Position numbers and translations under genes: made by a program | The notes under the pieces: generated by a model | Databases searched by the model: none | Told to the model about the DNA's origin: nothing | Seen by the model: only the letters and a program-made list of their open reading frames with translations | Source of the DNA: Gammaproteobacteria bacterium | GTDB lineage: Bacteria; Pseudomonadota; Gammaproteobacteria; VBWC01 | Direction: 5' to 3' | DNA length: 64,000 bases | Assembly (NCBI GenBank): GCA_006218035.1 | Contig: VBWC01000003.1 | Span: 117,251 to 181,250 of the forward strand | Shown: piece by piece, positions 22,809 through 62,684 of the stretch | How positions within the stretch are numbered: position 1 is the first letter of the stretch | Layout: the number at the start of each line of letters is the position of its first letter

Positions 22809-23056
22809 TCGCAGGGCAATCTCTCTTCATTAACTGTCGATCGCGTATCGGTGTAACGATGCTGGCCCTAAAAATGCATAATTTGTACCAGAGCCATCAT
22901 GTTAACGAGTGGACCCGGCATGCCGCTGCGATACCCGCAAAGCGGTCGATTCTTGCCGTATCAAACGATATGCTGGCCGATCACGCAGCAAGTTCCGCGA
23001 TACCCGACAGGCAATGACGACAAATAATTGACCGGAAGAGGCGGGCTGTCGAAGGC

Positions 23057-24880
23057 ATGGCACATACACAAAGGCATGATAGTTCGGTGACGACAGTCCC
23101 AGACAACACTCAGGCGGCAACGATTGATCGATGGATCGACGCGGCCTTGCAACACCACCAGGCCGGCCGTTTGCCCGATGCCGAGGCGCTGTATCGCCAG
23201 GCACTTGTGGAGCAACCCGATCATCCGGATGCACTGCATCTGCTCGGGTTCGTGGCGTATCAGTGCGGCCGGCACCAGCAGGCGCTTGAACTGATTTCGA
23301 CCGCCTTACGCCGCTCCCCGGATGCGCCCGATTTTCACAACCATCTCGGTCTGGTCCTGGCGGCGCTGGGCAGACCGGCAGACGCGATAGCGAGCTATGG
23401 CAACGCCCTGCGACTCGCGCCGGAATTTCCGGAAGCGCATAACAACCTCGGCATCCGGTTGCGCGAAGACGGTCGCCTGACGGAGGCGGAAGCGCACTAC
23501 CGCGCCGCGGTGGCGGCCCGGCCAGTGTTTTCGGATGCGTGGAATAACCTCGGCAACGTGTGTCGTGAACGCGGTGAATTCGATGCGGCCCTGGCGGCGT
23601 ATCGCGAAGCGCTGCGGCAACGGCCCGATTTCGCCGAGGCGCACAGCAATATCTTGTTTACATTGAGCCACTACTTGCTGGCTGATCCGGATCAGCTGCT
23701 GCAGGAACATCAGGGCTGGGACCGCGTGCATGGCGTTGCCGGGCGCGCACACGCCCACGCGCATCCGCGTCGCGGGGATCCGGAAAAACGCCTGCGTATC
23801 GGCTATGTATCGCCGGATTTTCGTTTGCACGCCGCGAACAGTTTCTTTGAGTCGCTGATCGCCGCGCACACCCGCGACGCGGTAGAGATCTTCTGTTACG
23901 CCGAAGTATCCCGGCCGGATGCGGTGACAGAGCGCATCCGCGTGAACGCCGATGTTTGGCGGAGTACCGTGGGGCTGTCGGATGACGCGCTCGGGCGGCA
24001 GATTCGCGACGACGGTATCGATATTCTGGTCGATCTGGCCGGGCATACGACCGGCAACCGGTTGCGCGTGTTTACCGGGAAACCGGCGCCGATACAAGTA
24101 TCTTATCTCGGCTACTGCGCGACGACCGGCCTGACCGCGATGGACTACTGGATTACCGACGGGGTGATTCACCCGCCCGATACGATCGAAAGGACAGTCG
24201 AAGCGATCATCCGGTTGCCGCGCTGCTGGGTGACCTACCGGCCGCCTGTGGACGCGCCGCCGGTTCGTTTACCGGCACGCAGTGGTATTACGTTCGGCTG
24301 TTTTAACGAACGTTCCAAGATCACGCCAGCCACGATCGCGCTGTGGAGCAGTATCCTGCTCGAACTGCCTGATGCCCGCCTGGTGCTCAAGGCGCGCCAG
24401 TACGCCGATGACAGTGTCCGGCAGGCGATCATCGATACCTTTACGCAGCACGGGGTGGCCGCAAACCGGTTGGTGTTTCTGCCAGCTACCGGTTACCTCG
24501 ATTACCTCGCCGCCTATCAAGACGTCGATATCGCGCTGGATCCGGTACCTCGCGCGGGCGGCGTGACCACAGCGGACGCGTTGTGGATGGGCGTGCCGGT
24601 GATCACCTTGTGCGGGCAGCGTTTCATCGAGCGCCACGGCGCGAGCCTGTTACGTGCCGCCGGCATGGACGAGTGGATCGCCGTGACGCCGCGGGATTAC
24701 GTTGACAAGGCGCTGGCGCTCGCGCGTGACCACGTGCACCGGCGTACTATGCGGCTGGCCCAGCGTGACCGTATGGCGGCGTCGCCATTGTGTGACGCAT
24801 TGGCCCATGCGCGCGCCATGGAACAAATCTACCGGGACATGTGGCGCGCATACGTGCGCAACACACCCCTGACTTCATGA
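23057..24880 (+). CDS. TPR-repeat protein with C-terminal GT41 (O-GlcNAc-transferase/SPINDLY-like) glycosyltransferase domain (607 aa)
   Basis: About 5 TPR units span aa 25-200. The C-terminal domain carries RIGYVSPDFRLHA...APIQVSYLGYCATTG...GGVTTADALWMGVPVITLCGQRFIERHGASLL, typical of the bacterial OGT-like family (COG3914). Confidence 0.8.
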   Translation: MAHTQRHDSSVTTVPDNTQAATIDRWIDAALQHHQAGRLPDAEALYRQALVEQPDHPDALHLLGFVAYQCGRHQQALELISTALRRSPDAPDFHNHLGLVLAALGRPADAIASYGNALRLAPEFPEAHNNLGIRLREDGRLTEAEAHYRAAVAARPVFSDAWNNLGNVCRERGEFDAALAAYREALRQRPDFAEAHSNILFTLSHYLLADPDQLLQEHQGWDRVHGVAGRAHAHAHPRRGDPEKRLRIGYVSPDFRLHAANSFFESLIAAHTRDAVEIFCYAEVSRPDAVTERIRVNADVWRSTVGLSDDALGRQIRDDGIDILVDLAGHTTGNRLRVFTGKPAPIQVSYLGYCATTGLTAMDYWITDGVIHPPDTIERTVEAIIRLPRCWVTYRPPVDAPPVRLPARSGITFGCFNERSKITPATIALWSSILLELPDARLVLKARQYADDSVRQAIIDTFTQHGVAANRLVFLPATGYLDYLAAYQDVDIALDPVPRAGGVTTADALWMGVPVITLCGQRFIERHGASLLRAAGMDEWIAVTPRDYVDKALALARDHVHRRTMRLAQRDRMAASPLCDALAHARAMEQIYRDMWRAYVRNTPLTS

Positions 24881-27189
24881 GCGTCAACCAACATATCGCG
24901 GGATCGCGGCTCGACAAACTGCTGGCCGACGCGGTGGCGCTGCATCAGGCCGGGAATCTCGCCGCGGCAGATACCCTGTATCGCGAGGCGCTGGCGATTG
25001 ATCGGCAACTCCCCGGCGCACTTTACGGTGCCGGTGTGGTCGCTCATCAGCTGGGCCACAACGATACGGCGATCGAATTGCTCGATGCGGCGCTACGCCA
25101 TCGTCCCGATGAACCGGCCTGGCTCAACATGCGCGGTCTGGTGTATGCGGCAATCGGCCGGATTGAGATGGCGCTCGAGGACTTTCAGCATGCCATCAGG
25201 CTTGAGCCGGACTTCGCCGAGGCGTACAACAGCATCGGTGTGACGCTGCGCAAGCAGGGTCGGGTCGATGAGGCGATCGAGTATTACCGGCAGGCGATTG
25301 AATGTCGTCCGGACCTCGTTATGGCGCATAACAATCTTGGCAACGCTCTCAAGAGCAAAGGGGCGCTCGACGCAGCGTTAGACCATTATCGCCATGCCTT
25401 GACGCTGCAGCCGGATTTCGTCGAGGCGATCAACAATCTCGGTACGGTCTACACGATGCAGGGGTCACTCGACGAGGCGCATGACGCATTCGAAAGAGCA
25501 CTGCAACTGCGGCCGGAATACCCGGACGCGCTGAATAATCTTGGCGTGGTTTATCAGAAGCGGGGAGACATTTCAGCCGCGCGGCAGTGCTTCGAGCGCG
25601 CGCTCCGGATCAGTCCGGGATTCGCCGCCGCGCACGCGAATCTGGCGTCCGCGCAGAATGCGCAGGAGGAGTTTTACAACGCGATCGAGTCTTGCCGCCA
25701 GGCACTGGCGATTGCGCCGGAGTTTCCCGAGGCCTATTTCAACCTGGGCATTGCGTTCAAGGATCTCGGTTTGCCGCTGAAGGCGCTGAAATACTTCGAA
25801 ACCGCCGTCAGACTGCGGCCGAACTACGCTGGCGCCTACAACGGCATCGCCAACGTCTGCCGCGACCAGGGGCAATTCGAGCTGGCCGGAACGTTCTATC
25901 GTGAAGCGTTGAGCGCTGATCCAACGAACCATGAAGTACATAACAATCTGCTGTTTACCATGAGCCATCACGTGATGACCACTCCGGAGGCGTTACTGGA
26001 GGCGCATCGGGACTGGGCGGCTAGCCATTGCCATGAAGGACGGGTGCATCGGTATACGCACTCTCCCGCGACGGCCCATGACGGGCGACGCTTGCGTATC
26101 GGTTACGTGTCACCGGATTTCCGCCGGCATGCCGCCGCCATCTTTCTGGAGCCGTTGCTCGCGGCTCACGACCGGCGGGTCGTCGAGATTTATTGTTACG
26201 CCGAACTTGTCCGTACCGATCAGGTGACCACGCGCTTCCGTCAGAGCGCGGACGCCTGGCGCGATACCGCCGGGATGAGCGACACGCAGCTGGCCCGACA
26301 GATCGTCGATGACCGGATCGATATCCTTGTCGATCTGGCCGGGCATACCGCCGGCAATCGGTTGACGATGTTTGCCTTCAAGCCGGCACCGGTGCAGGCG
26401 ACCTATCTCGGCTACTGTGCGACCACCGGTCTGGAAGAAATCGATTACTGGATCAGCGACGACGTGATACATCCGGCGGATACCTGCGAACTGGCGGTTG
26501 AGCAGATCCTGCGGTTGCCGCGCTGCTGGGTGAGTTACCAGCCGCCGGTCGATGCGCCGGAGGTGCAGATATCGCAACACGATCACATTACATTCGGATG
26601 TTTCAATGACCGCAGCAAGATCACGCCGGAGGTGGTCGCTGCGTGGAGCGGGATTCTCGATCGCGTACCTGGTTCGCGGTTGGTGCTGAAAGCGCGCCAG
26701 TACGCCGATGCGGACATCAATGCCGAGCTGATCGGTATGTTCCGGCAACATGGTATTGACGCGACGCGGCTCGAGTTCCAGCCGCTGTCGCTGCCCGGCG
26801 AATATCTGGCCAGTTATCACGCGATCGATATCGCGCTCGATCCGTTCCCGCGGCACGGCGGCGTTACTACGGCGGATGCCTTGTGGATGGGTGTGCCCGT
26901 GGTGACGCTGATTGGCGAGCGGTTCATCGAACGGCATGGTGCCAGCCTGCTGGCGGCAATCGGCGCACAGGACTGGATTGCCCAAGACCTCGAATGCTAT
27001 ATCGAGATCGCCGTGGCGTTGGCAGCGGATCCCGGTCGGCGTCACGCGTTGCGCCTGACGCAGCGGCAACGCGTGCGCGAGTCACCGTTGTGCGATCCGC
27101 AGGGATTGGCCAGGGCGATGGAGGGGCTCTATCGGCGGATGTGGCGCCGATATGTCCAATCGGCTTACGGTTCAACTCCCGCTTGCTAG
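24877..27189 (+). CDS. paralogous TPR-repeat / GT41 (OGT-like) glycosyltransferase (770 aa)
   Basis: The TPR array is longer (about 10 units), and the C-terminal domain is near-identical in motifs to the upstream gene (RIGYVSPDFRRHA...APVQATYLGYCATTG...GGVTTADALWMGVPVVTLIGERFIERHGASLL). Its ATG forms an ATGA overlap with the upstream stop. Confidence 0.8.
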   Translation: MSVNQHIAGSRLDKLLADAVALHQAGNLAAADTLYREALAIDRQLPGALYGAGVVAHQLGHNDTAIELLDAALRHRPDEPAWLNMRGLVYAAIGRIEMALEDFQHAIRLEPDFAEAYNSIGVTLRKQGRVDEAIEYYRQAIECRPDLVMAHNNLGNALKSKGALDAALDHYRHALTLQPDFVEAINNLGTVYTMQGSLDEAHDAFERALQLRPEYPDALNNLGVVYQKRGDISAARQCFERALRISPGFAAAHANLASAQNAQEEFYNAIESCRQALAIAPEFPEAYFNLGIAFKDLGLPLKALKYFETAVRLRPNYAGAYNGIANVCRDQGQFELAGTFYREALSADPTNHEVHNNLLFTMSHHVMTTPEALLEAHRDWAASHCHEGRVHRYTHSPATAHDGRRLRIGYVSPDFRRHAAAIFLEPLLAAHDRRVVEIYCYAELVRTDQVTTRFRQSADAWRDTAGMSDTQLARQIVDDRIDILVDLAGHTAGNRLTMFAFKPAPVQATYLGYCATTGLEEIDYWISDDVIHPADTCELAVEQILRLPRCWVSYQPPVDAPEVQISQHDHITFGCFNDRSKITPEVVAAWSGILDRVPGSRLVLKARQYADADINAELIGMFRQHGIDATRLEFQPLSLPGEYLASYHAIDIALDPFPRHGGVTTADALWMGVPVVTLIGERFIERHGASLLAAIGAQDWIAQDLECYIEIAVALAADPGRRHALRLTQRQRVRESPLCDPQGLARAMEGLYRRMWRRYVQSAYGSTPAC

Positions 27190-39100: not shown

Positions 39101-40840
39101 ATGAAGTTAGTCCTGCTCAACCCTTTTACACGAATGCACATCCGCAGCCGGTTGCTGCTGGGTTTTGGCACGCTGATCCTGATTATCTGCGGCGGCTACG
39201 CGATCAGTTCGACCAATCTTATATACCTGCAACGCGAACAGGCGAAGATTCCCGAGGCGATGCACCAGGTTGAGGTCGCAGTGGGCGATGTCCTCACGTT
39301 GCGGCACGCACAGCAACTGGTCCTTAAGTGGGGCTACCCGGTGCTCCAGGAGCGAACCACACTGGAAAAATATTTTGTTACCGACGGCGTCGCTGCGCAA
39401 CAGGGTATATATGAGGAGTTTCAGCGACTGGGTGATGAAATCGATAACATTGCCACCCAATTGAGCAGCGTCATATCGGACAAGCAAGCCGCGACAAAAA
39501 TTGCCGAGATACAGAGTCAGCAACAGAAAATTCATCTGGCTGCGATCGAGGTTATTGCCGCGTTCGATGGCGAGGGCGAATTTGGCGACGAGGCGCAGTC
39601 GCAGTTGGCAGCGTTTGTTCAGCAGATTGATGTGCTTCTGTCATTGATACTGGGCTTCGAACAATTAGTGAACGAAAAGGGCGAGCTTGCCACCGATATT
39701 CAGAGCGACCGATTTCAGGCGGTCGCCAGGAACATCGAAGGATCAAAACAGGTTATTGCAGCGTCGCAATACATCAGCCTGTTCCTTGTCCTGGTTGGGT
39801 TGGCGTTCGCCATGTCGGTCAGTGTGATGATCTACCGATCGATCGTTCTTCCTTTACGGTATTGCACGATGCTCTCGCGGCGCATCGCCGCGTTCGATCT
39901 GAGACTGGACAACAGCCGTGACGCGCCGACCGGGCCCGATGCATTGTCGCGGCTCGCGGCCGATTTGAACTCGATGCGCTCGTCATTGCGTGACCTGATT
40001 GAAAAGATCGTTGCGGCGGCCAATCACCTCAGTGTTTCGGGTGATGAGTTCCAGCGTTCCTCGGTGCGGGTTCGGGAAGTGGCTGGCAGCCAGGCGGCGA
40101 GGTCCGGCGACGCGTCGGCCGCAACAGGGCAGATGTTGGCGACGGTCCAGGAGATTGCCCGGGCAGCAGGCGAAACAGCCGAATTTTCGCATCAGGTTGA
40201 TGAGAAGGTTCGGTACAGCGCCGATGTCGAGGCCAAGGTGACACTTGAAGAGATGGAGCACGCGATTCAGGCGGTTGATGCGAACAACGAAGAGATCCGG
40301 TTTGTTTCCGGTTCGGCAAAAGAGGTTGGTGAGATCGTCGGTTTCATCAGCGGTGTTGCCGAGCAGACCAACCTCCTCGCGTTGAACGCCGCCATTGAGG
40401 CAGCCCGGGCCGGTGAGCATGGCCGCGGATTTGCGGTAGTTGCTGACGAGGTGCGTAATCTGGCGAAGCGAACGAAGGAGGCCACGGCCGAGATAAAGGA
40501 AAAGGTCGAGCGCATGCAGGCCGAGGTCCGTAAGGCCTCGACCAGAATGGACAGCAGCCGTGAGTCTGTGCGGCGCGGTTCGGTTGCGGTCAACCGGATT
40601 GTCGATCTGTTGCGGGAAATCGAGACCATGAACACCAAGTTGCGCGTGCTCAACGAGAATATTGCGGCGTCCACGGAAGAGCAAACGAATACATCGGAAG
40701 AGATCGCCAGGAGTGTCGCGGGCGTGAATACCAGCTGCGGCGACCTTACGAAACATGCGGAAGATATCCATGCTCAGGCCAAAGGTGTCTATGACATGAC
40801 GGAAACCATCAGCAAAGAAATAATGAAATTCAAGATTTAG
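39101..40840 (+). CDS. methyl-accepting chemotaxis protein
   Basis: It has two transmembrane segments flanking a ~180-aa periplasmic region, then HAMP. The highly conserved MCP signalling domain [38 protein letters not shown] is present. Confidence 0.9.
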
Positions 40841-40938
40841 CGGGAGTATAGTTGTATCTGTAAACGGCTGGTTCACGGTGATCCCGGCCGGCGCAGAAAA
40901 AAAGAACGTGACAGTCATGGACGGGAGGGGACAGTGCC

Positions 40939-42063
40939 ATGAAGTTGAGAAATTATCTGGCGGCGGGTGTGGCAACGGGCTTCGGTGTCTTGTTCGTCAA
41001 CGGAGCGGCGTGTGCGGATGACGCGTTGGAACAACGCGTTCGTAAACTCGAAACCGAACTGCAACTTTCCAGAGAGGAGATTCAGCAGTCAAGGCAGCAA
41101 CAAGACGTTGATGTATCCGGTTACGTTGATTTTGAATATTCGGGATATTCGGAGACGCCGGGTAAAGAAAGCGCGTTTCGCCTGCATCACCTGTCACTGT
41201 TCTTTACCAAGCAACTTGCCGAAAAGTGGCGCTTCTTCTCCGAGATAGAATATGAAGATGGGTCGAACTTCGAAGGTCCGGAGACAGCGGGCGTTCTTAA
41301 ATCCGATGATGGCAAGATATTCGTCGAGGCGGTCAATACGGATTTCCTGTACGATTCGCGCGCCAATCTTCGCGTTGGCCGGTTTTTTACACCGGCTGGT
41401 ATCTGGTCGATAGATCACTATCCGCCGTTTGTGCCAACCCAGGTGCGGCCGCAGCATATCCGCAAGATATTTCCTCAGTTGGTGGATGGTTTGATGGTGT
41501 ACGGGACGTTACCGGCAGGTGATTCATTTGTTAACTACGACGCCTATATTGGTAACGGCGAAGGGAATAGCGGCGCGGGAGACAGCAACAGTGAGAAAGC
41601 ACTGGGTGCCAAGATTTCAGTGGTTTTCCCTGCGCTTGATCTTGAGGTCGGTGGTACGATTTACCGCGACGAGAAGGACACCGGGAATGCTAACGCCGAC
41701 AAGACGGCAGCCGGTGTTCACGCGAAGCTCTCCGCTGGAGGGTTTACCGGGCAGTTTGAATATGCCGCAGCGGATCTGACTCCGGCTGGCGGCGGCAGCG
41801 ACGATGAGGTCGAGGGATGGTATCTGCAGATCCTGTATGACCTCTCCAACTGGACGTTCGGGCTGCGCCATGATGTTTATGACAGCGACAAGGACAATCC
41901 CGTGACGCTCACCGAAGATACCGTGAACAGTGTGTTCGTCAATTATCATGTTTCGCCGACGATGGTCATCAAGCTCGAACATCATGTAACCGACGACGCA
42001 AGCGATCCGGTAAACGATCCCACCCAGACCATGGCGAGTATGGCGATATTCCTGGGTGATTGA
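40939..42063 (+). CDS. outer-membrane porin-like protein, phosphate-selective porin O/P-like
   Basis: A signal peptide (AACA) is followed by a short coiled coil and then alternating beta-strand-like segments rich in Y/G/D/N. The family assignment is by resemblance only. Confidence 0.45.
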   Translation: MKLRNYLAAGVATGFGVLFVNGAACADDALEQRVRKLETELQLSREEIQQSRQQQDVDVSGYVDFEYSGYSETPGKESAFRLHHLSLFFTKQLAEKWRFFSEIEYEDGSNFEGPETAGVLKSDDGKIFVEAVNTDFLYDSRANLRVGRFFTPAGIWSIDHYPPFVPTQVRPQHIRKIFPQLVDGLMVYGTLPAGDSFVNYDAYIGNGEGNSGAGDSNSEKALGAKISVVFPALDLEVGGTIYRDEKDTGNANADKTAAGVHAKLSAGGFTGQFEYAAADLTPAGGGSDDEVEGWYLQILYDLSNWTFGLRHDVYDSDKDNPVTLTEDTVNSVFVNYHVSPTMVIKLEHHVTDDASDPVNDPTQTMASMAIFLGD

Positions 42064-42087
42064 TCCGCTCGATAGGGGGGAATAAGC

Positions 42088-42516
42088 ATGTGGGCGACAA
42101 GAATCATGTTAATGGTGGTGGTGTCTGGGGTTGTAGCGCCAGCGCAGGCCGAGCCGGTTGCGGTGATTGTCAATTCGGAAAACACGCAAGCGCTGAGTTC
42201 CGCCGATGTACGCAATATGTACGAGGATAACGTCATCGTCTGGAGCAACGGCGACCCGGTCAGGCCGTATCATCTGTCGACAAAATCAGACGCAAGGGAG
42301 GTATTCTCCAAAAACGTGCTTGATAAATCAGCGATGGCGGCGGCGCGATTCTGGGCTAACAAGAAAATAACCAATACGGCGAAGAATCCCCCGGAAACCA
42401 GTAATGAACTGCTGGTCATCAACGAGGTGTTACGAAACCGGCAGGCGATAGGTTATGTGCCGCTTGCCATGGTTAAAAAGCAGGACGGTGTCAGGATCGT
42501 TCTGACAGTGGAGTAA
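42088..42516 (+). CDS. small periplasmic PstS/PBP-like phosphate-binding domain protein
   Basis: A signal peptide (APAQA) precedes a ~120-aa region resembling the short PBP-like phosphate-binding fragment family (VAVIVNSEN...AIGYVPLAMV). Confidence 0.4.
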   Translation: MWATRIMLMVVVSGVVAPAQAEPVAVIVNSENTQALSSADVRNMYEDNVIVWSNGDPVRPYHLSTKSDAREVFSKNVLDKSAMAAARFWANKKITNTAKNPPETSNELLVINEVLRNRQAIGYVPLAMVKKQDGVRIVLTVE

Positions 42517-42717
42517 CCGCGGGCCGACGACCGGCGATACCGGTCGGCGCGGGAGCGCCGCGCCGCTGTTTTTGCTGCGCGAACCCGCTGTAGTAACGTT
42601 GCCAGCCTCGACGTGAATTTGTCTGTGTCGTATCAACCCTCTGTCAAACTTTCGCCGTCCTGTGTTCTTGCCTCTCCAAGCCACTGATTAGGCATCCTTA
42701 TAATTGTTGCGGATCCA

Positions 42718-42733
42718 TGGCACGGCTCTTGCT
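42718..42733 (+). promoter_or_regulatory. sigma-54 type promoter upstream of fliLMNOPQR
   Basis: TGGCAC-GGCTC-TTGCT is a near-perfect consensus with GG/GC spacing of 10. It lies about 37 nt upstream of the chosen fliL GTG start. Confidence 0.7.
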
Positions 42734-42769
42734 CGATGCATGGCATCTGCAACAAAGGAAGGATTAGCC

Positions 42770-43351
42770 GTGGCGAAAGAAGAGGAAGGCAAGGACAAGG
42801 ACAGCGAAGGTGAGGGCGAAGAAGCGAAGGCCCCGCCGAAGTCGCGTAAGAAGCTGATCATCATCATCGCTGCTATCGTTCTGGTGAGCGCCATCGGTGT
42901 CGGCGTTACGTTGATGCTGCTGCCCGGTCATCCGCCAGCTGACGAGCATGCGGCTGCCGCCGGAGAAGCTGGGGCGGCCGAGGACGGCAAGCCGAAGAAG
43001 CCGCGCAAGGGCGGCGGCAAGCCGGAGAGCGCCGACGCAAACTACTACGCGTTCGACCCGCCGTTCATTGTCAATTTCCGGGATCAGGCACAAGCGCGCT
43101 TTCTGCAGGTGGAAGTGCAGGTGATGGCGCTCGATCCGGCGGTCATTGAGACCATCAAGAAACACATGCCGCGCATACGTAACGATCTGATCCTGCTGTT
43201 CAGCAGCCAGAAATACGAGACGCTGAGCACGCGCGAAGGGAAAGAGAAGATGCGCGACGAGGCCTTGTTCGAGATACGCAAGATCCTCAAGGAAGAAACC
43301 GGCAACCCCGGTGTCGAAGGGCTCTATTTCACCACGTTGATCATGCAGTAA
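42770..43351 (+). CDS. fliL: flagellar basal body-associated protein FliL
   Basis: It has a single transmembrane segment (LIIIIAAIVLVSAIGVGVTLMLL) and the FliL C-terminal domain (FIVNFRD...RFLQVEVQVM...LSTREGKEKMRDE). The GTG start after an AAGGAAGGA ribosome-binding site was chosen because the longer ORF-track start would overlap the sigma-54 promoter. Confidence 0.8.
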   Translation: MAKEEEGKDKDSEGEGEEAKAPPKSRKKLIIIIAAIVLVSAIGVGVTLMLLPGHPPADEHAAAAGEAGAAEDGKPKKPRKGGGKPESADANYYAFDPPFIVNFRDQAQARFLQVEVQVMALDPAVIETIKKHMPRIRNDLILLFSSQKYETLSTREGKEKMRDEALFEIRKILKEETGNPGVEGLYFTTLIMQ

Positions 43352-57063: not shown

Positions 57064-57801
57064 ATGGATATACTTTCTATAGCAGGCGTGATTCTCGCGC
57101 TCACCGCGATTCTCGGCGGAAACCTGCTCGAAGGCGGACACACGGCATCGTTGCTGCAGCTGACGGCGTTCATCATTGTGGCCGGCGCCACGGCGGGCGC
57201 CATCATGCTGCAGTTCGCCATGCCGATATTCATGCGCGGCCTCAAAATGGGCCTGTGGGTGTTTTTTCCGCCGAAAATTCCGGTTAAGGAGGCGATCGAC
57301 AAGATCGTGTCGTGGAGTAATACCGCGCGCAAGGAGGGCCTGCTGGGGCTGGAGGAGGTCGTCGAGGGAGAAACCGATCCATTCGCGCGCAAGGGTTTGC
57401 AGCTACTGGTCGACGGTGGCGAGCCCGAGGCGATACGCGGCATTCTGGAGCTCGAGTTGACGATCCGTGAGGAGCGCGATGCGCTGTCCGCGAAGATCTG
57501 GGAGGCGGCCGGCGGTTATACACCGACGGTCGGGATTATCGGCGCGGTCATGGGTTTGATTCACGTTATGAATAATCTGGCCGACCCGAGCAAGCTCGGT
57601 AGCGGTATTGCGGTCGCGTTCGTCGCGACAATCTACGGTGTCGGCCTCGCCAACCTGCTTTTTCTGCCGATGGCGAGCAAGCTGAAGGCGCTGGTCGGTA
57701 AACAAACGAAGTACGCCGAGATGATCATCGAAGGCATTATCGCGATCGCCGAGGGTGAAAACCCGAGGAACATCGAATCCAAGCTGCAAGGCTATTTGTA
57801 A
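57064..57801 (+). CDS. motA: flagellar stator protein MotA/PomA family
   Basis: The 245-aa product has four transmembrane segments. Its position after cheB corresponds to motC/pomA of polar-flagellum systems. Confidence 0.85.
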   Translation: MDILSIAGVILALTAILGGNLLEGGHTASLLQLTAFIIVAGATAGAIMLQFAMPIFMRGLKMGLWVFFPPKIPVKEAIDKIVSWSNTARKEGLLGLEEVVEGETDPFARKGLQLLVDGGEPEAIRGILELELTIREERDALSAKIWEAAGGYTPTVGIIGAVMGLIHVMNNLADPSKLGSGIAVAFVATIYGVGLANLLFLPMASKLKALVGKQTKYAEMIIEGIIAIAEGENPRNIESKLQGYL

Positions 57802-57820: not shown

Positions 57821-59542
57821 ATGGCGCGCAAGAAAAAACACGAAGAACACGAGAACCTCGAACGTTGGCTGGTTTCTTACGCCGACTTCATTACCCTGTT
57901 GTTCGCGTTCTTCGTCGTCATGTACTCGGTCTCGTCGGTCAATCAGGGTAAGTACCGCGTGTTGTCAGACGCACTGGTGGCGTCGTTTCGTTCGCCTCTT
58001 AAAAGCCTCGACCCAATCCAAATCGGCGATACCGCGAAATCGATTTATAACCCTCAATACGCGTTTATGAAGGAGCCGTCTGTCTTTAATATTCCCAAGC
58101 TGCCGCAGCGGCATGTGCCGGGCGCGGAAACGAAGGGCCCGCGGTCGCAAGGCGACGGTGGGACCCGCGAGCGGGCGGAGGGCAGGGGTATCGAGGGCCG
58201 TGCAGTGGAACAAGGCACGACCGAAGGCCAGCATCGTGGCGTTGTGTCCGCCGAGGGGGACGTCGAAAATGCCTTTCAACAACGCCTGCCGCCGATACCG
58301 GAAACCGGTCTGCCGCCGGAGGCGTTGCAGCCCGGCACGATCGTCAGCAAGGGTACCAGGATAGGCGGATTCGGCGGTATCGAGGCCGAGTTACCCGCGC
58401 CGTTGCCGGATACCGACAAAACCGCAAAAGAGTTGAAGGTGGGAACCCTCGTCAGTGGCGGCACCGAGATCGGCGGCTTCGGCGGGGTGGATGTCGAACT
58501 GCCCGCGCCGCTGCGGGAAGTGAAGGCGCATCGCGATGTCCGCGCGATCTCGCAGGAGTTTACCGAAAAACTGGAGGGACTCATCGCCGGCGACCTTGTC
58601 GCCATACGCAGTGACGAAAAGGCGCTGACAGTAGAGGTGGAAATCAAGGACAACGTATTGTTCAAAAGCGGTAGCGCCAATGTCGAAGCGACCGCGTTGC
58701 CGGTGCTCAACGATCTTGCGGGGGTATTGAAACAGTTTCCGTATCCGGTTCGTGTCGAAGGATTTACCGATAACAATCCGATCAGCACCAGCGCTTTTCC
58801 GTCCAACTGGGAATTGTCCGCGGTGCGGGCGGCAAGCGTGGTCAAGGCGTTGAGCACCGCCGGTATCGAACCGCCGCGGCTGTCTGCAGTTGGCTACGGT
58901 GAGTACCGTCCGGTCGCCGCCAACAACACCGTCGAGGGCCGCCAGCAGAATCGCCGCGTCATCCTGGTGATCGAGGCGAACCCGTCTGCGCAGCCGATAT
59001 TGCAGGCGTCGCTGCCGACCCGGCCACGCAGCGTGACGTTCGACAAGGAGGCAGTGGCATTGCCGCCGCCCGCGGTACCCGTTACCCGTGCCATACCTGC
59101 ACCGGTAACGCCGGTGCCGGACAAGCCGGTGGCACCGGCCAGTCCGGTTGAGGCGAAACCGGTGGTCCCGGTGCCGCTGCCGGCCACGCCGGTTGAACAG
59201 CCGGTGACTGTCGACGAAAAAAATGTCGTAGTACCCGCCGCGATCAAACCTGAACCAGCGGTACCGGCAAAACAAATCGCGCAGCCAGCAATCGTGACGC
59301 CGGAAATAACTCCGGAGCCGGTGGTTGCGCCGGAACCGCTGCCGCCACCGAAGACGGCTGAATCTGCGGGCGCCATTTTGCAACCGTTTCGGGCGATCGA
59401 CATGCCGAACCCGATCACGATGCCGATTGCACCGCCGATCAAGTTGCCGGTCGCGCCCGAGCGGAAGCAGTCGTCCGAACTTACGCCGAATGCGCTCGGG
59501 GTCAAGTCGATCTGGCCCGGTGGATCCAAAGAGAAGCCATAG
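57821..59542 (+). CDS. motB: flagellar stator protein MotB/PomB family, unusually long (573 aa) with repeat insert and Pro-rich C-terminal extension
   Basis: The N-terminal plug/transmembrane region (WLVSYADFITLLFAFFVVMYSVSS) matches MotB. The OmpA-like peptidoglycan-binding domain (VRVEGFTDNNP...AVGYGEYRP...QNRRV) is present. An internal tandem repeat and a ~190-aa Pro/Val/Ala-rich tail are additional. Confidence 0.82.
   Translation: MARKKKHEEHENLERWLVSYADFITLLFAFFVVMYSVSSVNQGKYRVLSDALVASFRSPLKSLDPIQIGDTAKSIYNPQYAFMKEPSVFNIPKLPQRHVPGAETKGPRSQGDGGTRERAEGRGIEGRAVEQGTTEGQHRGVVSAEGDVENAFQQRLPPIPETGLPPEALQPGTIVSKGTRIGGFGGIEAELPAPLPDTDKTAKELKVGTLVSGGTEIGGFGGVDVELPAPLREVKAHRDVRAISQEFTEKLEGLIAGDLVAIRSDEKALTVEVEIKDNVLFKSGSANVEATALPVLNDLAGVLKQFPYPVRVEGFTDNNPISTSAFPSNWELSAVRAASVVKALSTAGIEPPRLSAVGYGEYRPVAANNTVEGRQQNRRVILVIEANPSAQPILQASLPTRPRSVTFDKEAVALPPPAVPVTRAIPAPVTPVPDKPVAPASPVEAKPVVPVPLPATPVEQPVTVDEKNVVVPAAIKPEPAVPAKQIAQPAIVTPEITPEPVVAPEPLPPPKTAESAGAILQPFRAIDMPNPITMPIAPPIKLPVAPERKQSSELTPNALGVKSIWPGGSKEKP
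58340..58518 (+). repeat. imperfect tandem duplication of a ~71-nt unit (period ~108 nt) inside motB
   Basis: The units are 58340-58410 and 58448-58518. They encode TIVSKGTRIGGFGGIEAELPAPLPD and TLVSGGTEIGGFGGVDVELPAPLRE. Confidence 0.7.
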
Positions 59543-59590
59543 CCCCGCTGGTAAGTCAGTGTTCGGTGTATCGTCCCTATCAAGAGAGAG

Positions 59591-59606
59591 TGGCATGGAT
59601 GCTGCA
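59591..59606 (+). promoter_or_regulatory. possible sigma-54-like element upstream of cheW
   Basis: TGGCAT-N5-CTGCA has GG/GC spacing of 10 but two mismatches. It lies about 115 nt upstream of the cheW ATG. Confidence 0.3.
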
Positions 59607-59719
59607 ACGTATCGGGTATCTCGCCGTGCGACAAAAAGCCGGCGTATATGTGCACGATGTTTGGCGGGTTGCCGGATTGCCGGCGTTGCCGAAACAGGAA
59701 TGACGACACGAGCATAACG

Positions 59720-60178
59720 ATGGAATCAGTCAGACAGGAAACGAAGCGGGCGGATACGGTCACGCAATGGGTGACCTTCAGGCTGGCCGGCGAAACCTAC
59801 GGCATCGAAGTCATGTCGGTTCAGGAGGTTTTGCGGGTTCCGGAGATTACGCCGGTACCGGGCGTACCGGATCACGTACTGGGTATTATCAATCTGCGCG
59901 GCAAGGTTGTTACGGTGCTCGATATGCGCCAGCGTTTCGGTTTGCCGTCGACCGGGCTCGACGACGCGTCGCGCATCATTGTCATCGAAATCGCCGATGA
60001 CGTGGTCGGTGTCCTGGTGGATCGTGTGGCCGAGGTGGTCTACCTGAACGAGGCCGAGGTGGAAAGCGCCCCGGATGTCGGTAATCGGAAGAGTTCGCGA
60101 TTTATTCGCGGGGTGCATGTCAGCGACGACCAAATGCTGATTCTGGTCGATTTCACCGGTCTCATCGACGAAGCGTAG
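59720..60178 (+). CDS. cheW: chemotaxis coupling protein CheW
   Basis: The CheW domain is present (QWVTFRLAGETYGIEVMSVQEVLRVPEITPVPGVPDHVLGIINLRGKVVTVLDMRQRFGL). The start was trimmed to the ATG at 59720. Confidence 0.9.
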   Translation: MESVRQETKRADTVTQWVTFRLAGETYGIEVMSVQEVLRVPEITPVPGVPDHVLGIINLRGKVVTVLDMRQRFGLPSTGLDDASRIIVIEIADDVVGVLVDRVAEVVYLNEAEVESAPDVGNRKSSRFIRGVHVSDDQMLILVDFTGLIDEA

Positions 60179-60232: not shown

Positions 60233-60409
60233 ATGGTAAAACTTCCCGAGATTCCTCCCGTCGCACCGGCCTGGCCTAGACCAAAGTCCGACCGGACCGG
60301 TCGATCCGGGCGAACCGAGAAAAAGCAACGCGACGACGAACGTGAACGCCGGCGCAAGGATGATCCGGACGAAGAGGGCGGGAAGGATCATGTCGACGAA
60401 TACGCTTAG
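60233..60409 (+). CDS. possible small (58 aa) highly charged protein between cheW and the DUF2802 gene
   Basis: The ORF is below the 60-aa cutoff of the supplied track. Its product, MVKLPEIPPVAPAWPRPKSDRTGRSGRTEKKQRDDERERRRKDDPDEEGGKDHVDEYA, fills an otherwise unexplained gap. No ribosome-binding site could be confirmed. Confidence 0.25.
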   Translation: MVKLPEIPPVAPAWPRPKSDRTGRSGRTEKKQRDDERERRRKDDPDEEGGKDHVDEYA

Positions 60410-60803: not shown

Positions 60804-62684
60804 TTACGCCCCGTCGTGCGCATCACCGCGCACGTCTATCGTGCGGCGCGGCTCGCCAACAAAATACCCCTGTGCATAGTCAATACCCAGGTCGGTCAGC
60901 ATGTCGAGCACCGCCTGATTTTCCACGAACTCGGCAACGGTTTTTTTGCCGAGGGAGTGGGCGACGTCAATAATGGATTTGACCAGCGACTGATCCATGG
61001 CGCTGTTGGGAAGATTGGTGATGAAGCTGCCGTCGATCTTGAGAAAATCCACCGGAAAGTTTTTGATGTAGGCGAACGAGTTGAAGCCGGAACCGAAGTC
61101 GTCGAGTGCGAACTGGCAACCGAGTTCGCGCAGGCGGATAATCATTTGGCGCGTCTGTTCCGCGTTCGCGATCGCTGCGGTTTCGGTGATTTCAAATATC
61201 AGGCGGGTCGCATCAATACCGCGCTCGGTAATCTGATCCCGAATCAGCGCAAACAGGGTCGGATCCTGGAAGGAATGACCGGACAGGTTGATATTCAGTG
61301 AAACGTGCGCCAGCTCGGGCGGGAGCGTCGCCAGCATCCTGATCGCACTGAGCACTACCCAGCGATCTATGTCATGGATCAGGCCCATGCTTTCCGCTAC
61401 CGGGATAAAATTCACCGGGCTGACCAGCTGGTTGTCGGCGTCGATCAACCGTATCAGTACCTCGTAATGCTGAAAGCGGCCGTTCGCAACATTGAGTACC
61501 GGCTGGTACACCAGGCAAAAACGCTGTTCCGCGAGCGCCGCTCGAATGATTGGCACCCAGTGCGCAGCGCTGCGCAGGATGTCCATTTCCGCGTCTTCCT
61601 TGCTGTAGAGATGAACGAGATTCCGCCCGCGGGACTTGGCGGCGAAACAGGCCCGGTTAGCGCGTGCGAGTATGGTGCTGGCGGACAGCCCGTCGTCGGG
61701 ATGAATGAGCACGACGCCGATGCTCGCGCCGATATGATACGTGCGCTTATTGACGTCGACGCGATAGTTGTCCATCAAGCGATGCAACGATTCGGCGGTG
61801 CCCAGCACGGCCTTGTCATCCGCGCCTTCGATCACGACGGCGAACTCGTCTGCGCTGACGCGACAAACGAGATGGGCGGCGCCGAAGTGACGGCGGAGTA
61901 ATCGGGAGATTGCTATTAATACCTCATCACCCACGGTATAGCCTTCCAGATCGTTGATGACCTTGAACTGGTCGAGATCAAGGTACAGCAAGCCGCTGGC
62001 GACGCCGCTATGTTCCGCTAGATGTACGAGGCGATCCATGGCCTTCTCGAGCTGGCGGCGGTTACAGAGTCCGGTGAGATCGTCGTGCGTGACGAGATGG
62101 TTCAGGCGCTCCTCAACGATGCGTCGTTCCGCAAGTTCAATGACGAGCTCGTCTTCCCGGCTCTTGCGCAGGTCTCGTTCCCGCTTGAGCGAAAGCGCGG
62201 ATATCACTCGCGGGATCAGTTCCACGCGACGTATCGGTTTAAACATGATGTCGGTTGCGCCGGCGGTAAAGCTGGTGTTGGCGATTTCGTCCTGCCACGT
62301 CGCGTTTGCAGTGATCATGATGACCGGGATATCCGCCCAGTCGATTTGGGAGCGTATCCGGCCGCAAACCTCGTATCCGTCCATATTCGGCATCATGATG
62401 TCGAGCAACACGAGATTGATGCGACACTGATTGTTCGCGGTGTTTTGCGCCAGCAGATTCAGGGCCAGGGCACCGCTGCTCGCGGCGACCGTATTCATGA
62501 ATCCGCTCTTGGCGAGCATGGCGCGTGTCAGGTCGATGTTGTCGCTGTTGTCATCAACGACCAGGATGCGCATGCGGCGCAATTCGTCGAGAAAGTTGGT
62601 ATGCGGGTCGCGGCCGTTCGCGTCGCCGCCGCGGTCCGTCGGGGACGCAGGCCCGTTGTTCTGTTTACGACCCGTGTTTTCCAT
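60804..62684 (-). CDS. response-regulator receiver / degenerate GGDEF (SADEF) / EAL phosphodiesterase-domain protein
   Basis: The REC domain carries ILVVDD...LVLLDIMMPNMDG. The GGDEF-like domain has SADEF in place of GGDEF. The EAL domain carries EVLIRL, the NINLS, EITE, DDFGSGFNS, KIDGSF and QGYF motifs, consistent with a catalytically competent c-di-GMP phosphodiesterase. Confidence 0.85.
   Translation of the reverse strand: MENTGRKQNNGPASPTDRGGDANGRDPHTNFLDELRRMRILVVDDNSDNIDLTRAMLAKSGFMNTVAASSGALALNLLAQNTANNQCRINLVLLDIMMPNMDGYEVCGRIRSQIDWADIPVIMITANATWQDEIANTSFTAGATDIMFKPIRRVELIPRVISALSLKRERDLRKSREDELVIELAERRIVEERLNHLVTHDDLTGLCNRRQLEKAMDRLVHLAEHSGVASGLLYLDLDQFKVINDLEGYTVGDEVLIAISRLLRRHFGAAHLVCRVSADEFAVVIEGADDKAVLGTAESLHRLMDNYRVDVNKRTYHIGASIGVVLIHPDDGLSASTILARANRACFAAKSRGRNLVHLYSKEDAEMDILRSAAHWVPIIRAALAEQRFCLVYQPVLNVANGRFQHYEVLIRLIDADNQLVSPVNFIPVAESMGLIHDIDRWVVLSAIRMLATLPPELAHVSLNINLSGHSFQDPTLFALIRDQITERGIDATRLIFEITETAAIANAEQTRQMIIRLRELGCQFALDDFGSGFNSFAYIKNFPVDFLKIDGSFITNLPNSAMDQSLVKSIIDVAHSLGKKTVAEFVENQAVLDMLTDLGIDYAQGYFVGEPRRTIDVRGDAHDGA

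What the first reader, a model, noticed from the sequence alone, without database searches (positions are those of the whole stretch)
57821..59542. MotB/PomB-type stator protein nearly twice normal length: internal tandem repeat plus ~190-aa proline-rich C-terminal tail
Canonical MotB proteins are about 250-350 aa. This one has a ~36-aa tandemly duplicated segment between the transmembrane/plug region and the OmpA domain; the units are 71 nt with a period of about 108 nt. After the peptidoglycan-binding domain it carries a long PVAP/PEP-type low-complexity extension. Such linkers could change stator reach or anchoring, for example to an unusual cell envelope.
Basis: seen in the sequence. Interest (0 to 1): 0.5.

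Follow-up and report, generated by a model that had tools for sequence, protein, structure and literature searches.

The report
Extra-long flagellar stator protein MotD
This is a genuine, intact gene for the cell-wall-anchoring subunit (MotD type) of the flagellar motor. In a small group of uncultured groundwater bacteria it has gained a long floppy linker with a duplicated 36-residue piece and a long proline-rich tail ending in short conserved motifs. It is an unusual variant of a well-known protein, not a new kind of system.

Summary
ORF 57821..59542 (+) encodes 573 aa with MotB_plug (aa 3-56) and OmpA (aa 280-378) domains. It sits next to a MotA-type gene inside a flhF-flhG-fliA-cheY-cheA-cheB-motC-motD-cheW flagellar cluster. 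It passes NCBI's MotD equivalog cut-off.

The 36-aa duplication is real: a 27-aa core scores 103, against 22±5 for shuffles. It is also old, with only 44% identity at third codon positions. It occurs in four independent assemblies, and two more distant relatives have one copy.

The tail (aa 398-573) is 24% proline. All five relatives keep it in frame, at 190-230 aa (about 250 in a sixth after frameshift correction). Its spacer evolves fast (dN/dS 0.44-0.68), but its end is constrained (about 0.18-0.19 in two of three close comparisons).

The tail end carries FRAIDMPNPITMPIAPPIKLP. This looks like a variant of a motif found in about a quarter of related MotD tails, though it matches that motif's HMM only weakly. 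AlphaFold2 predicts both the linker and the tail as disordered.

Assembly artefact and gene fusion are excluded. What the expansions do (extra reach, or a second docking contact) is inference only.

Verdict: new variant of a known kind, modest interest.

The parts
57064..57801 (+). motC: stator A subunit (MotA/PomA-type, 245 aa), partner of the protein in question
   Evidence: Pfam MotA_ExbB and MotA_N. NCBIfam NF006583 scores 380 bits against a cut-off of 237, while PomA, MotA and MotP models fall below their cut-offs.
57821..59542 (+). motD: stator B subunit, 573 aa, a single intact ORF
   Evidence: NCBIfam NF006541 (MotD equivalog) scores 305 bits against a cut-off of 283. It is identical to an NCBI MAG protein annotated as MotB.
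57878..57937 (+). Transmembrane helix (aa 20-39). It contains Asp22 (nt 57884-57886), which aligns with the proton-carrying Asp of MotB.
   Evidence: AF2 helix 20-39. D22 is invariant in 119 homologs.
57953..57991 (+). Plug helix (aa 45-57)
   Evidence: Pfam MotB_plug. AF2 helix 45-57.
57992..58504 (+). Expanded periplasmic linker (aa 58-228, 171 aa), predicted disordered
   Evidence: AF2 gives no secondary structure and pLDDT 37-54. The GKYR-to-EGFTD distance is 270 aa here against a family median of 161. dN/dS is 0.04-0.43.
58178..58243 (+). Clade-specific conserved Gly/Glu/Arg motif block EGRGIEG...EGQHRGV (aa 120-141) inside the linker
   Evidence: Columns are invariant across the six clade members. 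The motifs are absent from all other MotD linkers examined and occur only in the 7 clade sequences.
58324..58410 (+). Repeat unit 1 (core aa 169-195, LQPGTIVSKGTRIGGFGGIEAELPAPL)
   Evidence: dN/dS 0.05-0.15.
58432..58518 (+). Repeat unit 2 (core aa 205-231, LKVGTLVSGGTEIGGFGGVDVELPAPL). It abuts the start of helix alpha1.
   Evidence: dN/dS 0.20-0.43. This unit is absent in P0005 and P0006.
58505..59011 (+). Helix alpha1 plus the OmpA-like peptidoglycan-binding domain (aa 229-397). It includes EGFTD (58757-58771) and NWELSAVRAASV (58805-58840).
   Evidence: AF2 pLDDT above 90. Foldseek matches PomBc5 3wpw (TM 0.93, rmsd 1.4) and MotS and MotB structures. Sequence hits in the PDB. Motif columns are invariant.
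59069..59380 (+). Pro/Val/Ala-rich spacer of the tail (aa 417-520). It includes a degenerate copy of family motif M1 at 59288-59320 (AIVTPEITPEP).
   Evidence: Composition is 27% P. dN/dS is 0.44-0.68, with many in-frame indels. Resemblance to P0005/L006 FPVIVLPEITEE was judged by eye.
59387..59449 (+). Tail motif M2, FRAIDMPNPITMPIAPPIKLP (aa 523-543). It looks like a variant of the MotD-subfamily motif ..G.FPVI..PPIKLP.
   Evidence: Conserved in the clade. The family-motif HMM matches it only weakly: 9 bits over the APPIKLP part. dN/dS for aa 521-573 is 0.18-0.19 against L001 and L004, and 0.45 against L003.
59483..59524 (+). Tail motif M3, TPNALGVKSIWPGG (aa 555-568), clade-specific
   Evidence: Present in the query, P0002, P0004, P0005 and frame-corrected L006. 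Absent in P0003.
59720..60178 (+). cheW, the next gene. The likely true start is ATG 59720; the mechanical ORF starts at 59648.
   Evidence: Pfam CheW. Orthologs are called at 152-160 aa.

Best explanation
What it is. The ORF is the real, intact B subunit (MotD type) of the MotC/MotD stator of a polar flagellum, in an uncultured gammaproteobacterium.

Shown:
- It has every canonical part: the TM helix with the conserved Asp22, the plug helix, helix alpha1, and an OmpA-like peptidoglycan-binding domain.
- Its partner gene is adjacent and it lies in a flagellar/chemotaxis cluster.
- It carries two expansions, both predicted disordered.
- The first is a 171-aa linker (the plug-to-OmpA distance is about 110 aa above the family median). 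It contains conserved Gly/Glu/Arg motifs and an ancient 36-aa duplication directly N-terminal to helix alpha1.
- The second is a 176-aa tail. It is a fast-evolving but length-retained Pro/Val/Ala-rich spacer that ends in short constrained motifs.
- The specific linker motifs, the duplication and the M2-M3 tail end are restricted to one small clade. One tail motif looks like a variant of a motif carried by roughly a quarter of related MotD tails.

Inferred:
- The core works like any MotB. Protons pass via Asp22. The plug is released and alpha1 opens when the unit docks on the rotor. The OmpA-like domain then grips peptidoglycan.
- The long linker gives extra slack or reach between the inner membrane and the wall-binding domain.
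- The proline-rich tail acts as an extended arm. It presents its terminal motifs to a partner beyond the wall-binding domain. That partner could be peptidoglycan, a periplasmic flagellar ring, or something on the outer-membrane side. This would add a second contact that helps recruit or hold stator units.
For: Identity. Pfam. The NCBIfam MotD equivalog is above cut-off and the partner NF006583 is above cut-off. Asp22 and the PG-binding motif columns are invariant. AF2 and Foldseek match PomB, MotS and MotB structures. Gene order is conserved in relatives.

Reality of the expansions. Five independent assemblies keep them. All indels are in frame and dN/dS is below 1 in every segment. Third-codon-position identity between the repeat units is only 44%, while 19 of 36 residues are kept.

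Constraint. Linker dN/dS is 0.04-0.43 with no length change among four sequences. Spacer dN/dS is 0.44-0.68. Tail-end dN/dS is 0.18-0.19 in two of three close comparisons. Tail length stays at 190-230 aa (about 250 in corrected L006) across about 45% sequence divergence.

Family-wide motif. The HMM consensus GEPVDVTSRPVTEVGRFPVIAPPIKLP is found in 45 of 187 MotD tails. It never occurs in tails under 60 aa and occurs in 40 of 76 tails of 60-130 aa.

Disorder. AF2 gives no secondary structure for aa 58-228 and 398-573.

Background from the literature. The plug-to-PEM linker is dispensable in Salmonella MotB and Vibrio PomB, and alpha1 opens on activation (PMC9093738, read).
Against: No experiment or structure bears on the expansions, and no partner for the tail motifs was identified. 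AF2 does not dock the family motif onto the OmpA domain, neither in the query nor in a canonical motif carrier, P0009 (pLDDT 53-69). So neither an intramolecular nor a trans role is shown.

The query matches the family-motif HMM only weakly: 9 bits, limited to the APPIKLP part. The FRAIDMP resemblance to FPIIDLP was judged by eye. The tail-end constraint is not uniform: dN/dS is 0.45 against L003 and 0.94 against L005. P0003 lacks motif M3, so that motif is not indispensable.

[quoted passage not shown] In model species the linker can be deleted. Both expansions could therefore be largely neutral.
Confidence: 0.55

Rival explanations
1. Neutral bloat. The linker and tail are tolerated disordered expansions that arose by replication slippage or duplication in regions where MotB proteins accept almost any sequence. 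They have no specific function. Conservation within the clade reflects recent common ancestry and compositional constraint only.
For: Both regions are predicted disordered. Spacer dN/dS is 0.44-0.68 with many indels. Linker and tail lengths vary widely across MotD homologs, which range from 277 to 573 aa. Other lineages expanded the linker with unrelated repeats, for example P0038. Linkers are dispensable in model species. The P. aeruginosa MotB tail is not needed for swimming.
Against: dN/dS is 0.04-0.22 in the linker and repeat units against relatives whose synonymous sites are near saturation. The tail end is at about 0.18 in two comparisons. Linker motifs are invariant across sequences that are 55% identical overall. 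Both repeat copies kept 19 of 36 residues while third codon positions randomised. The tail motif recurs in many distant MotD proteins and is tied to tails of 60 aa or more.
Confidence: 0.3
2. Envelope-geometry adaptation only. The long linker exists because the peptidoglycan layer or the stator-binding ring lies unusually far from the inner membrane in this lineage. The tail simply fills or spans the space between peptidoglycan and outer membrane, without specific docking.
For: The plug-to-OmpA distance is about 110 aa above the family median. FliL in the same cluster has about 40 residues between its TM segment and the FliL domain, which starts at aa 114 of the 215-aa ORF. From my own recollection this is longer than in model FliL proteins. 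The Pro/Ala/Val-rich composition resembles the hinge of OmpA-type proteins that spans the outer-membrane-to-peptidoglycan gap (own knowledge).
Against: No envelope measurement exists for this lineage. The idea does not explain the conserved sequence motifs in the linker and at the tail end. FliL linker length was not compared systematically.
Confidence: 0.12
3. Artefact. The repeat or tail comes from misassembly, or the ORF is a frameshifted fusion of motD with a downstream gene such as the ParA-like parC that usually follows motD. Alternatively, the long reverse-strand ORFs (58391..59596 and 58894..59763, minus strand) are the real genes.
For: One relative (L006/P0006) does carry a frameshift in the tail. 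One database protein (P0110) is a MotD-ParA-like fusion call. parC is missing downstream in this clade.
Against: Five independent assemblies give the same architecture, with diverged sequence and in-frame indels. The repeat units are only 60-70% identical at DNA level, too different to confuse an assembler. The tail shows no similarity to the ParA-like part of P0110 (best E 0.41) and has no Pfam domain. A profile of the tail end finds only its own clade among 1.84 billion representatives. Purifying selection is seen in the plus-strand frame. The minus-strand ORFs translate to Arg-rich nonsense.
Confidence: 0.02

Closest known systems
MotD (B subunit of the MotCD stator) of Pseudomonas-type polar flagella; NCBIfam NF006541
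   Same: It scores above the equivalog cut-off. It has the same N-terminus (MARKKKHEEHEN..WLVSYADFITLLFAFF), plug and OmpA-like domain. Gene order is the same: cheA-cheB-motC-motD followed by cheW.
   Different: It is about twice as long. The linker region is about 110 aa longer and includes a 36-aa duplication. The tail is 176 aa, against about 50 aa in short family members. The parC/parP genes that usually follow motD are absent here.
Vibrio PomB and Salmonella/E. coli MotB (structurally characterised stator B subunits)
   Same: The predicted fold of aa 229-397 superposes on PomBc5 (TM 0.93) and on MotB and MotS structures. The layout is the same: plug, then a dispensable linker, then alpha1, then the PG-binding core (PMC9093738).
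   Different: The PomB, MotB and MotS NCBIfam models all score below their cut-offs. Those proteins have short linkers and short disordered C-termini. No tail motifs are known in them.
C-terminal extension of P. aeruginosa MotB (38 residues longer than MotD)
   Same: It is a disordered extension beyond the PG-binding domain of a stator B subunit. It is the only such extension I found studied experimentally (bioRxiv 10.1101/2025.11.06.686970).
   Different: It is 38 aa rather than 176 aa and is not described there as proline-rich. Its truncation did not affect swimming in liquid. No sequence relationship was tested.
Proline-rich periplasmic spacers: the TonB Pro-rich rod and the OmpA/OprF hinge (own knowledge)
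   Same: These are Pro-rich, extended segments of periplasmic proteins that bridge envelope layers. The tail spacer has a similar composition (27% P plus V and A).
   Different: There is no alternating Glu-Pro/Lys-Pro pattern, no folded TonB C-terminal domain and no Pfam TonB hit. Here the spacer follows the PG-binding domain rather than preceding it. This is a resemblance of kind, not homology.

Membership tests
MotB/MotD family (flagellar stator B subunit) | Single N-terminal TM helix carrying the conserved proton-binding Asp | tested here: met
   AF2 helix at aa 20-39. D22 in YADF is invariant in 119 sequences.
MotB/MotD family (flagellar stator B subunit) | Plug segment directly after the TM helix | tested here: met
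   Pfam PF13677 MotB_plug at aa 3-56, 75 bits against a cut-off of 24. Helix at aa 45-57.
MotB/MotD family (flagellar stator B subunit) | C-terminal OmpA-like peptidoglycan-binding domain with a conserved PG-binding motif | tested here: met
   PF00691 at aa 280-378. T316, D317, N329, L332, S333 and R336 are invariant or nearly invariant. The fold matches PomB, MotB and MotS.
MotB/MotD family (flagellar stator B subunit) | Encoded next to a MotA-type A subunit within flagellar/chemotaxis genes | tested here: met
   motC ends at 57801, 19 nt upstream. The window holds flgE through fliD, fleQ, fliK/L/M, cheA/B/W.
MotD equivalog (NCBIfam NF006541) | Whole-protein score above the curated cut-off | tested here: met
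   305.4 bits against a cut-off of 283, matched in two stretches split by the linker insertion.
MotB/MotD family (flagellar stator B subunit) | Actually drives flagellar rotation; ion specificity | not testable with these tools
   This needs genetics or biophysics. The A subunit matches NF006583 and not the PomA model (170 bits against a cut-off of 341). That only hints at a MotC-type, H+-driven unit.
PomB (Na+-driven Vibrio-type) | Score above the family cut-off for PomB-type or PRK08944-type models | tested here: not met
   NF006508 scores 160 bits against a cut-off of 259. The partner scores 170 against 341 on the PomA model.
TonB-like energy transducer | Pro-rich rod followed by a folded TonB C-terminal domain | tested here: not met
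   No TonB_C or other Pfam domain in aa 398-573. AF2 shows no folded element there.
MotD-subfamily C-terminal motif (defined here; consensus GEPVDVTSRPVTEVGRFPVIAPPIKLP) | Match to the motif HMM in the tail after the OmpA domain | tested here: inconclusive
   The query matches weakly: 9 bits, i-E 0.0097, covering only APPIKLP. Clade member P0005 matches clearly: 26 bits, 3.6e-8. Frame-corrected L006 carries the full motif.

The most novel reading that the evidence does not exclude
The proline-rich tail is a periplasm-spanning arm, TonB-like in principle. It would give the stator a second anchoring or recruitment contact beyond peptidoglycan, by docking its terminal short motifs (F-x-hydrophobic-I-D-x-P ... 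P-P-I-K-L-P) onto an outer-membrane-proximal flagellar ring or envelope protein. A related motif sits in about a quarter of related MotD proteins, so this would be an unrecognised and widespread mode of stator anchoring. The clade in this window would be its most extreme form.
Probability: 0.15. Interest if true: 0.6.

Novelty: new variant of a known kind. Interest (0 to 1): 0.3.

Why it matters
How stator units are recruited, held and released is a central question in flagellar motor mechanics. Nearly all work uses short MotB and PomB proteins, whose linkers and C-termini are treated as dispensable.

This clade shows that the two 'dispensable' regions can grow to about 60% of the protein (347 of 573 aa) while staying under purifying selection. 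It also shows that MotD tails in many uncultured gammaproteobacteria share a short conserved motif with no assigned function.

If those motifs dock onto a partner, they define a new contact in the stator-anchoring network. If they do not, the protein is a natural experiment on how much disordered length a stator tolerates. Either way the core finding is an ordinary MotD ortholog, so the immediate impact is modest.

Tried and rejected
1. Word-index homolog search with the linker alone (aa 96-245) returned nothing, not even the protein itself. The search was wasted, probably because of low-complexity masking.
2. An exhaustive profile search with the tail end (M2-M3, alignment A3) against 1.84 billion representatives found only the clade's own representative, P0005. 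The tail end is not a module shared with other protein families.
3. AF2 on the query with a 119-sequence alignment gave no confident structure or docking for the repeat units or tail motifs. AF2 on P0009, a canonical carrier of the family motif, gave the same result.
4. A third upstream repeat copy was suggested by a 21-nt DNA match at the same 108-nt spacing (family D3). It is not significant at protein level.
5. The tail as a remnant of the missing downstream parC is rejected. It has no similarity to the ParA-like part of P0110. Other long-tailed MotD genes still have parC downstream.
6. The tail and linker have no paralogous copy elsewhere in the window.
7. Tandem Repeats Finder does not detect the repeat.
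8. Four literature searches found no description of long proline-rich MotB or MotD tails or of the tail motif. The library is limited to open-access papers.
9. Rfam, PHROGs and PADLOC were not used, as they are not relevant to this question.
Full report
**What is there**

The coordinates given match one open reading frame, 57821..59542 on the plus strand, of 573 aa. Pfam finds a MotB_plug domain at aa 3-56 and an OmpA domain at aa 280-378. The gene 19 nt upstream (57064..57801) is a MotA/ExbB-type channel subunit. Further upstream lie cheB and cheA. Downstream lie cheW and a DUF2802 gene. The rest of the window is a polar-flagellum cluster holding flgE, flgI, flgK, flgL, fliC, fliD, fleQ, fliK, fliL, fliM and flhB.

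NCBI's curated models place the protein in the MotD equivalog (NF006541, 305 bits, cut-off 283). Its partner falls in NF006583 (380 bits, cut-off 237). The PomA/PomB, MotA/MotB and MotP/MotS models stay below their cut-offs. So this is the B subunit of a MotC/MotD-type stator. An identical protein is already in NCBI from a metagenome-assembled genome, annotated automatically as 'chemotaxis protein MotB [Gammaproteobacteria bacterium]'.

**Checking the observation**

Length. The 120 best homologs have a median of 344 aa. The MotD genes of 76 GTDB species representatives have a median of about 320 aa, and the next longest is 490 aa. 'Nearly twice normal length' is therefore correct.

Repeat. The repeat finder reports two 87-nt copies, 58324-58410 and 58432-58518. 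They are 70% identical and exactly 108 nt apart.
- In protein terms, 27-aa cores at aa 169-195 and 205-231 align with a score of 103. Shuffles average 22.0 with sd 4.7, and 0 of 1000 reach the observed score.
- 19 of 36 residues are identical in register.
- Nucleotide identity by codon position is 61%, 75% and 44%.

The duplication is therefore old. Synonymous positions have largely randomised while the amino-acid pattern GT.VS.GT.IGGFGG...ELPAPL was kept in both copies. A putative third copy upstream is not significant.

Tail. It runs from aa 398 to 573 and is 24% Pro, 13% Val and 13% Ala.

**Is it real?**

Five other assemblies from different samples encode close relatives: P0002 (89% identical, 573 aa), P0003 (570 aa), P0004 (577 aa), P0005 (572 aa) and P0006 (519 aa). 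Their loci have the same gene order.

The query, P0002, P0003 and P0004 all have two repeat units. P0005 and P0006 have one. The duplication therefore arose inside the clade.

Codon-level comparison shows no frameshifts and only in-frame indels. dN/dS by segment, for comparisons of the query with L001, L003 and L004:

| Segment | dN/dS |
|---|---|
| TM/plug | about 0.01 or lower |
| Gly/Glu/Arg-rich linker | 0.11-0.15 |
| Repeat unit 1 | 0.05-0.15 |
| Repeat unit 2 | 0.20-0.43 |
| OmpA domain | 0.08-0.14 |
| Proline-rich spacer | 0.44-0.68 |
| Last 53 residues | 0.18-0.19 (L001, L004); 0.45 (L003) |

Against the more distant L005, the last 53 residues give 0.94.

The apparently shorter P0006 is an assembly frameshift. 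The +1 frame of L006 continues into a tail that matches P0005 and ends ...IPNPSGIKSIWPGSQQDEE.

The tail has no similarity to the ParA-like protein that usually follows motD. A profile of the tail end finds only this clade's own representative among 1.84 billion representative proteins. Assembly artefact, gene fusion and reverse-strand genes are therefore rejected.

**Anatomy**

AlphaFold2 with a 119-sequence alignment gives confident structure only for four elements: the TM helix (aa 20-39), the plug helix (aa 45-57), a long helix at aa 229-256, and the OmpA-like domain to aa 397 (pLDDT above 90). This folded part superposes on Vibrio PomBc5 (TM-score 0.93, rmsd 1.4 Å) and on MotS and MotB structures. 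Asp22 and the peptidoglycan-binding motif columns are invariant in the family alignment.

The linker (aa 58-228) and the tail (aa 398-573) have no predicted secondary structure, with pLDDT of 37-64. The alignment is only six sequences deep in those regions, so a fold cannot be strictly excluded.

The linker is not featureless. EGRGIEG, EG.HRGV and several Gly and Pro positions are invariant across clade members that are only about 55% identical overall. These motifs occur in no other MotD linker examined. The second repeat unit ends exactly where helix alpha1 begins. In Salmonella MotB and Vibrio PomB, alpha1 is the element that opens when the stator is activated (PMC9093738).

**The tail is spacer plus motifs**

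Among the 108 homologs that could be parsed, the tail after the NRRV motif has a median of 84 aa. 36 tails are 100 aa or longer and 13 are 150 aa or longer. Long tails are therefore common in this MotD subfamily.

Many of these tails end in a shared short motif. An HMM built from clear cases has the consensus GEPVDVTSRPVTEVGRFPVIAPPIKLP. It is detected in 45 of 187 tails. It is found in none of 88 tails shorter than 60 aa and in 40 of 76 tails of 60-130 aa.

In the long clade, P0005 and frame-corrected L006 carry three elements:
- M1, a clear copy of the family motif: PVDVTG.PGLERG.FPVIVLPEITE.
- M2, after a spacer: AIDLP....P..APIxI.
- M3, a terminal element: IPNP.GI[KR]SIWP.

The query keeps a degenerate M1 (AIVTPEITPEP, aa 490-500). 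It has M2 as FRAIDMPNPITMPIAPPIKLP (aa 523-543) and M3 as TPNALGVKSIWPGG (aa 555-568). The query matches the family HMM only weakly: 9 bits over the APPIKLP part. The resemblance of FRAIDMP to the FPIIDLP variant is judged by eye.

AF2 on P0009, a canonical motif carrier, does not dock the motif onto the folded domain (pLDDT 53-69, no secondary structure). If the motif has a binding role, that role is unresolved.

**Distribution**

In GTDB species representatives only one genome carries the long form: JAHFRU01, 'Gammaproteobacteria bacterium nzgw581', which encodes P0002. The other 79 loci match only the first 400 or so residues. They include Methylophaga, Acidiferrobacterales, Chromatiaceae, Immundisolibacter, Porticoccaceae, Pseudohongiella and many unnamed MAGs. 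The clade is small and uncultured.

**How it most likely works**

Shown: this is a complete MotD with all the parts needed for the standard mechanism.

Inferred from established knowledge of MotB and PomB (PMC9093738): protons pass via Asp22, the plug blocks the channel until the unit docks, alpha1 opens, and the OmpA-like domain binds peptidoglycan.

For the expansions there is only indirect evidence. Purifying selection and conserved length argue that they matter. Disorder, fast spacer evolution, dispensability of linkers in model organisms and the non-essential MotB tail of P. aeruginosa argue that they may matter little.

My preferred reading has two parts. The linker provides extra reach or slack. 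The proline-rich tail is an extended arm presenting short docking motifs for a second contact. By a standard disordered-chain scaling law, quoted from memory and not computed with a tool, a 171-residue linker has a relaxed end-to-end distance of roughly 9 nm, against about 5 nm for 60 residues. A spacer of about 125 residues reaches at least 8 nm, which is comparable with the gap between peptidoglycan and the outer membrane. These figures are illustrative only.

The main rival is neutral bloat. It gains a small hint from the roughly 40-residue linker between the TM segment and the FliL domain in this cluster.

**Novelty and verdict**

Four literature searches found no description of such long MotD proteins or of the tail motif. 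The closest experimental work concerns the 38-residue MotB extension in P. aeruginosa.

The protein is a member of a known family by every testable criterion, with unusual lineage-specific disordered expansions. I rate it a new variant of a known kind. Interest is modest (0.3). It would be higher only if the tail motifs prove to be a real anchoring contact.

Noticed in passing
window 60233..60409 (+): A 58-aa, extremely charged ORF (…RTEKKQRDDERERRRKDDPDEEGGKDH…) lies between cheW and the DUF2802 gene. A gene of 58, 58 and 68 aa is called at the same position in L001, L003 and L004. It has no Pfam match.
   Followed up: partly
window 59543..59719, and loci L007-L086: In most related genomes motD is followed by a ParA-like gene (parC) and then cheW about 1.5 kb further on. 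In this clade and in a few Methylophagaceae loci, cheW follows motD directly and the ParA-like gene is missing from this position. There is no correlation with tail length.
   Followed up: partly
window 59648..60178 (+): The mechanical CheW ORF is 176 aa, but orthologs are called at 152-160 aa. The true start is probably ATG 59720. The 177-nt motD-cheW spacer contains a small tandem repeat, TTGCCGGN x3.8, at 59661-59691.
   Followed up: no
window 19440..27189 (both strands): Three large TPR proteins lie next to fliC and fliD. Two of them carry glycosyltransferase family 41 (O-GlcNAc-transferase-like) domains. This may be a flagellin glycosylation island.
   Followed up: no
window 39101..42516 (+): Three genes are inserted between fliK and fliL in the flagellar cluster: a 579-aa ORF that looks by eye like a methyl-accepting chemotaxis protein (not scanned against Pfam), a porin-like protein (PF13609) and a 142-aa protein with no Pfam match.
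   Followed up: no
window 42704..43351 (+): FliL has about 40 residues (Pro/Ala/Gly/Lys-rich) between its TM segment and the FliL domain, which starts at aa 114 of the ORF. From memory this seems longer than in model FliL proteins. It may parallel the long MotD linker.
   Followed up: no
L006 around nt 1960-2320 (ENA ERZ23486259 scaffold_5012): There is a +1 frameshift inside the motD tail. The called protein P0006 (519 aa) ends in out-of-frame sequence. The corrected frame gives a protein of about 590 aa with tail motifs M1-M3.
   Followed up: yes
P0038 (461-aa MotD-like protein): This is an independent linker expansion built from a different repeat (GGLEGLEKLAELGGLQSLEELAKIGGLEGL…). It shows that linker growth by internal repetition recurs in this family.
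   Followed up: no
P0007, P0063: The family-wide tail motif is tandemly duplicated (…HVPGEPIDITSQPVTDVGHFPIINLPIAVP… twice) in some MotD proteins.
   Followed up: no
L074, L080, L084, L086 (Pseudohongiella and relatives): The MotD proteins of this group end in a different conserved C-terminus, …MRQR..Y..ET.GWW, with a terminal Trp-Trp.
   Followed up: no
P0110 (683 aa): This database protein joins MotD to a ParA-like ATPase through a stretch that looks like out-of-frame translation. It is probably a gene-calling or assembly fusion of motD and parC.
   Followed up: no
window 60804..62684 (-): A response-regulator-GGDEF-EAL protein (626 aa) lies immediately after the chemotaxis/stator genes. It is conserved at the same place in L001.
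   Followed up: no
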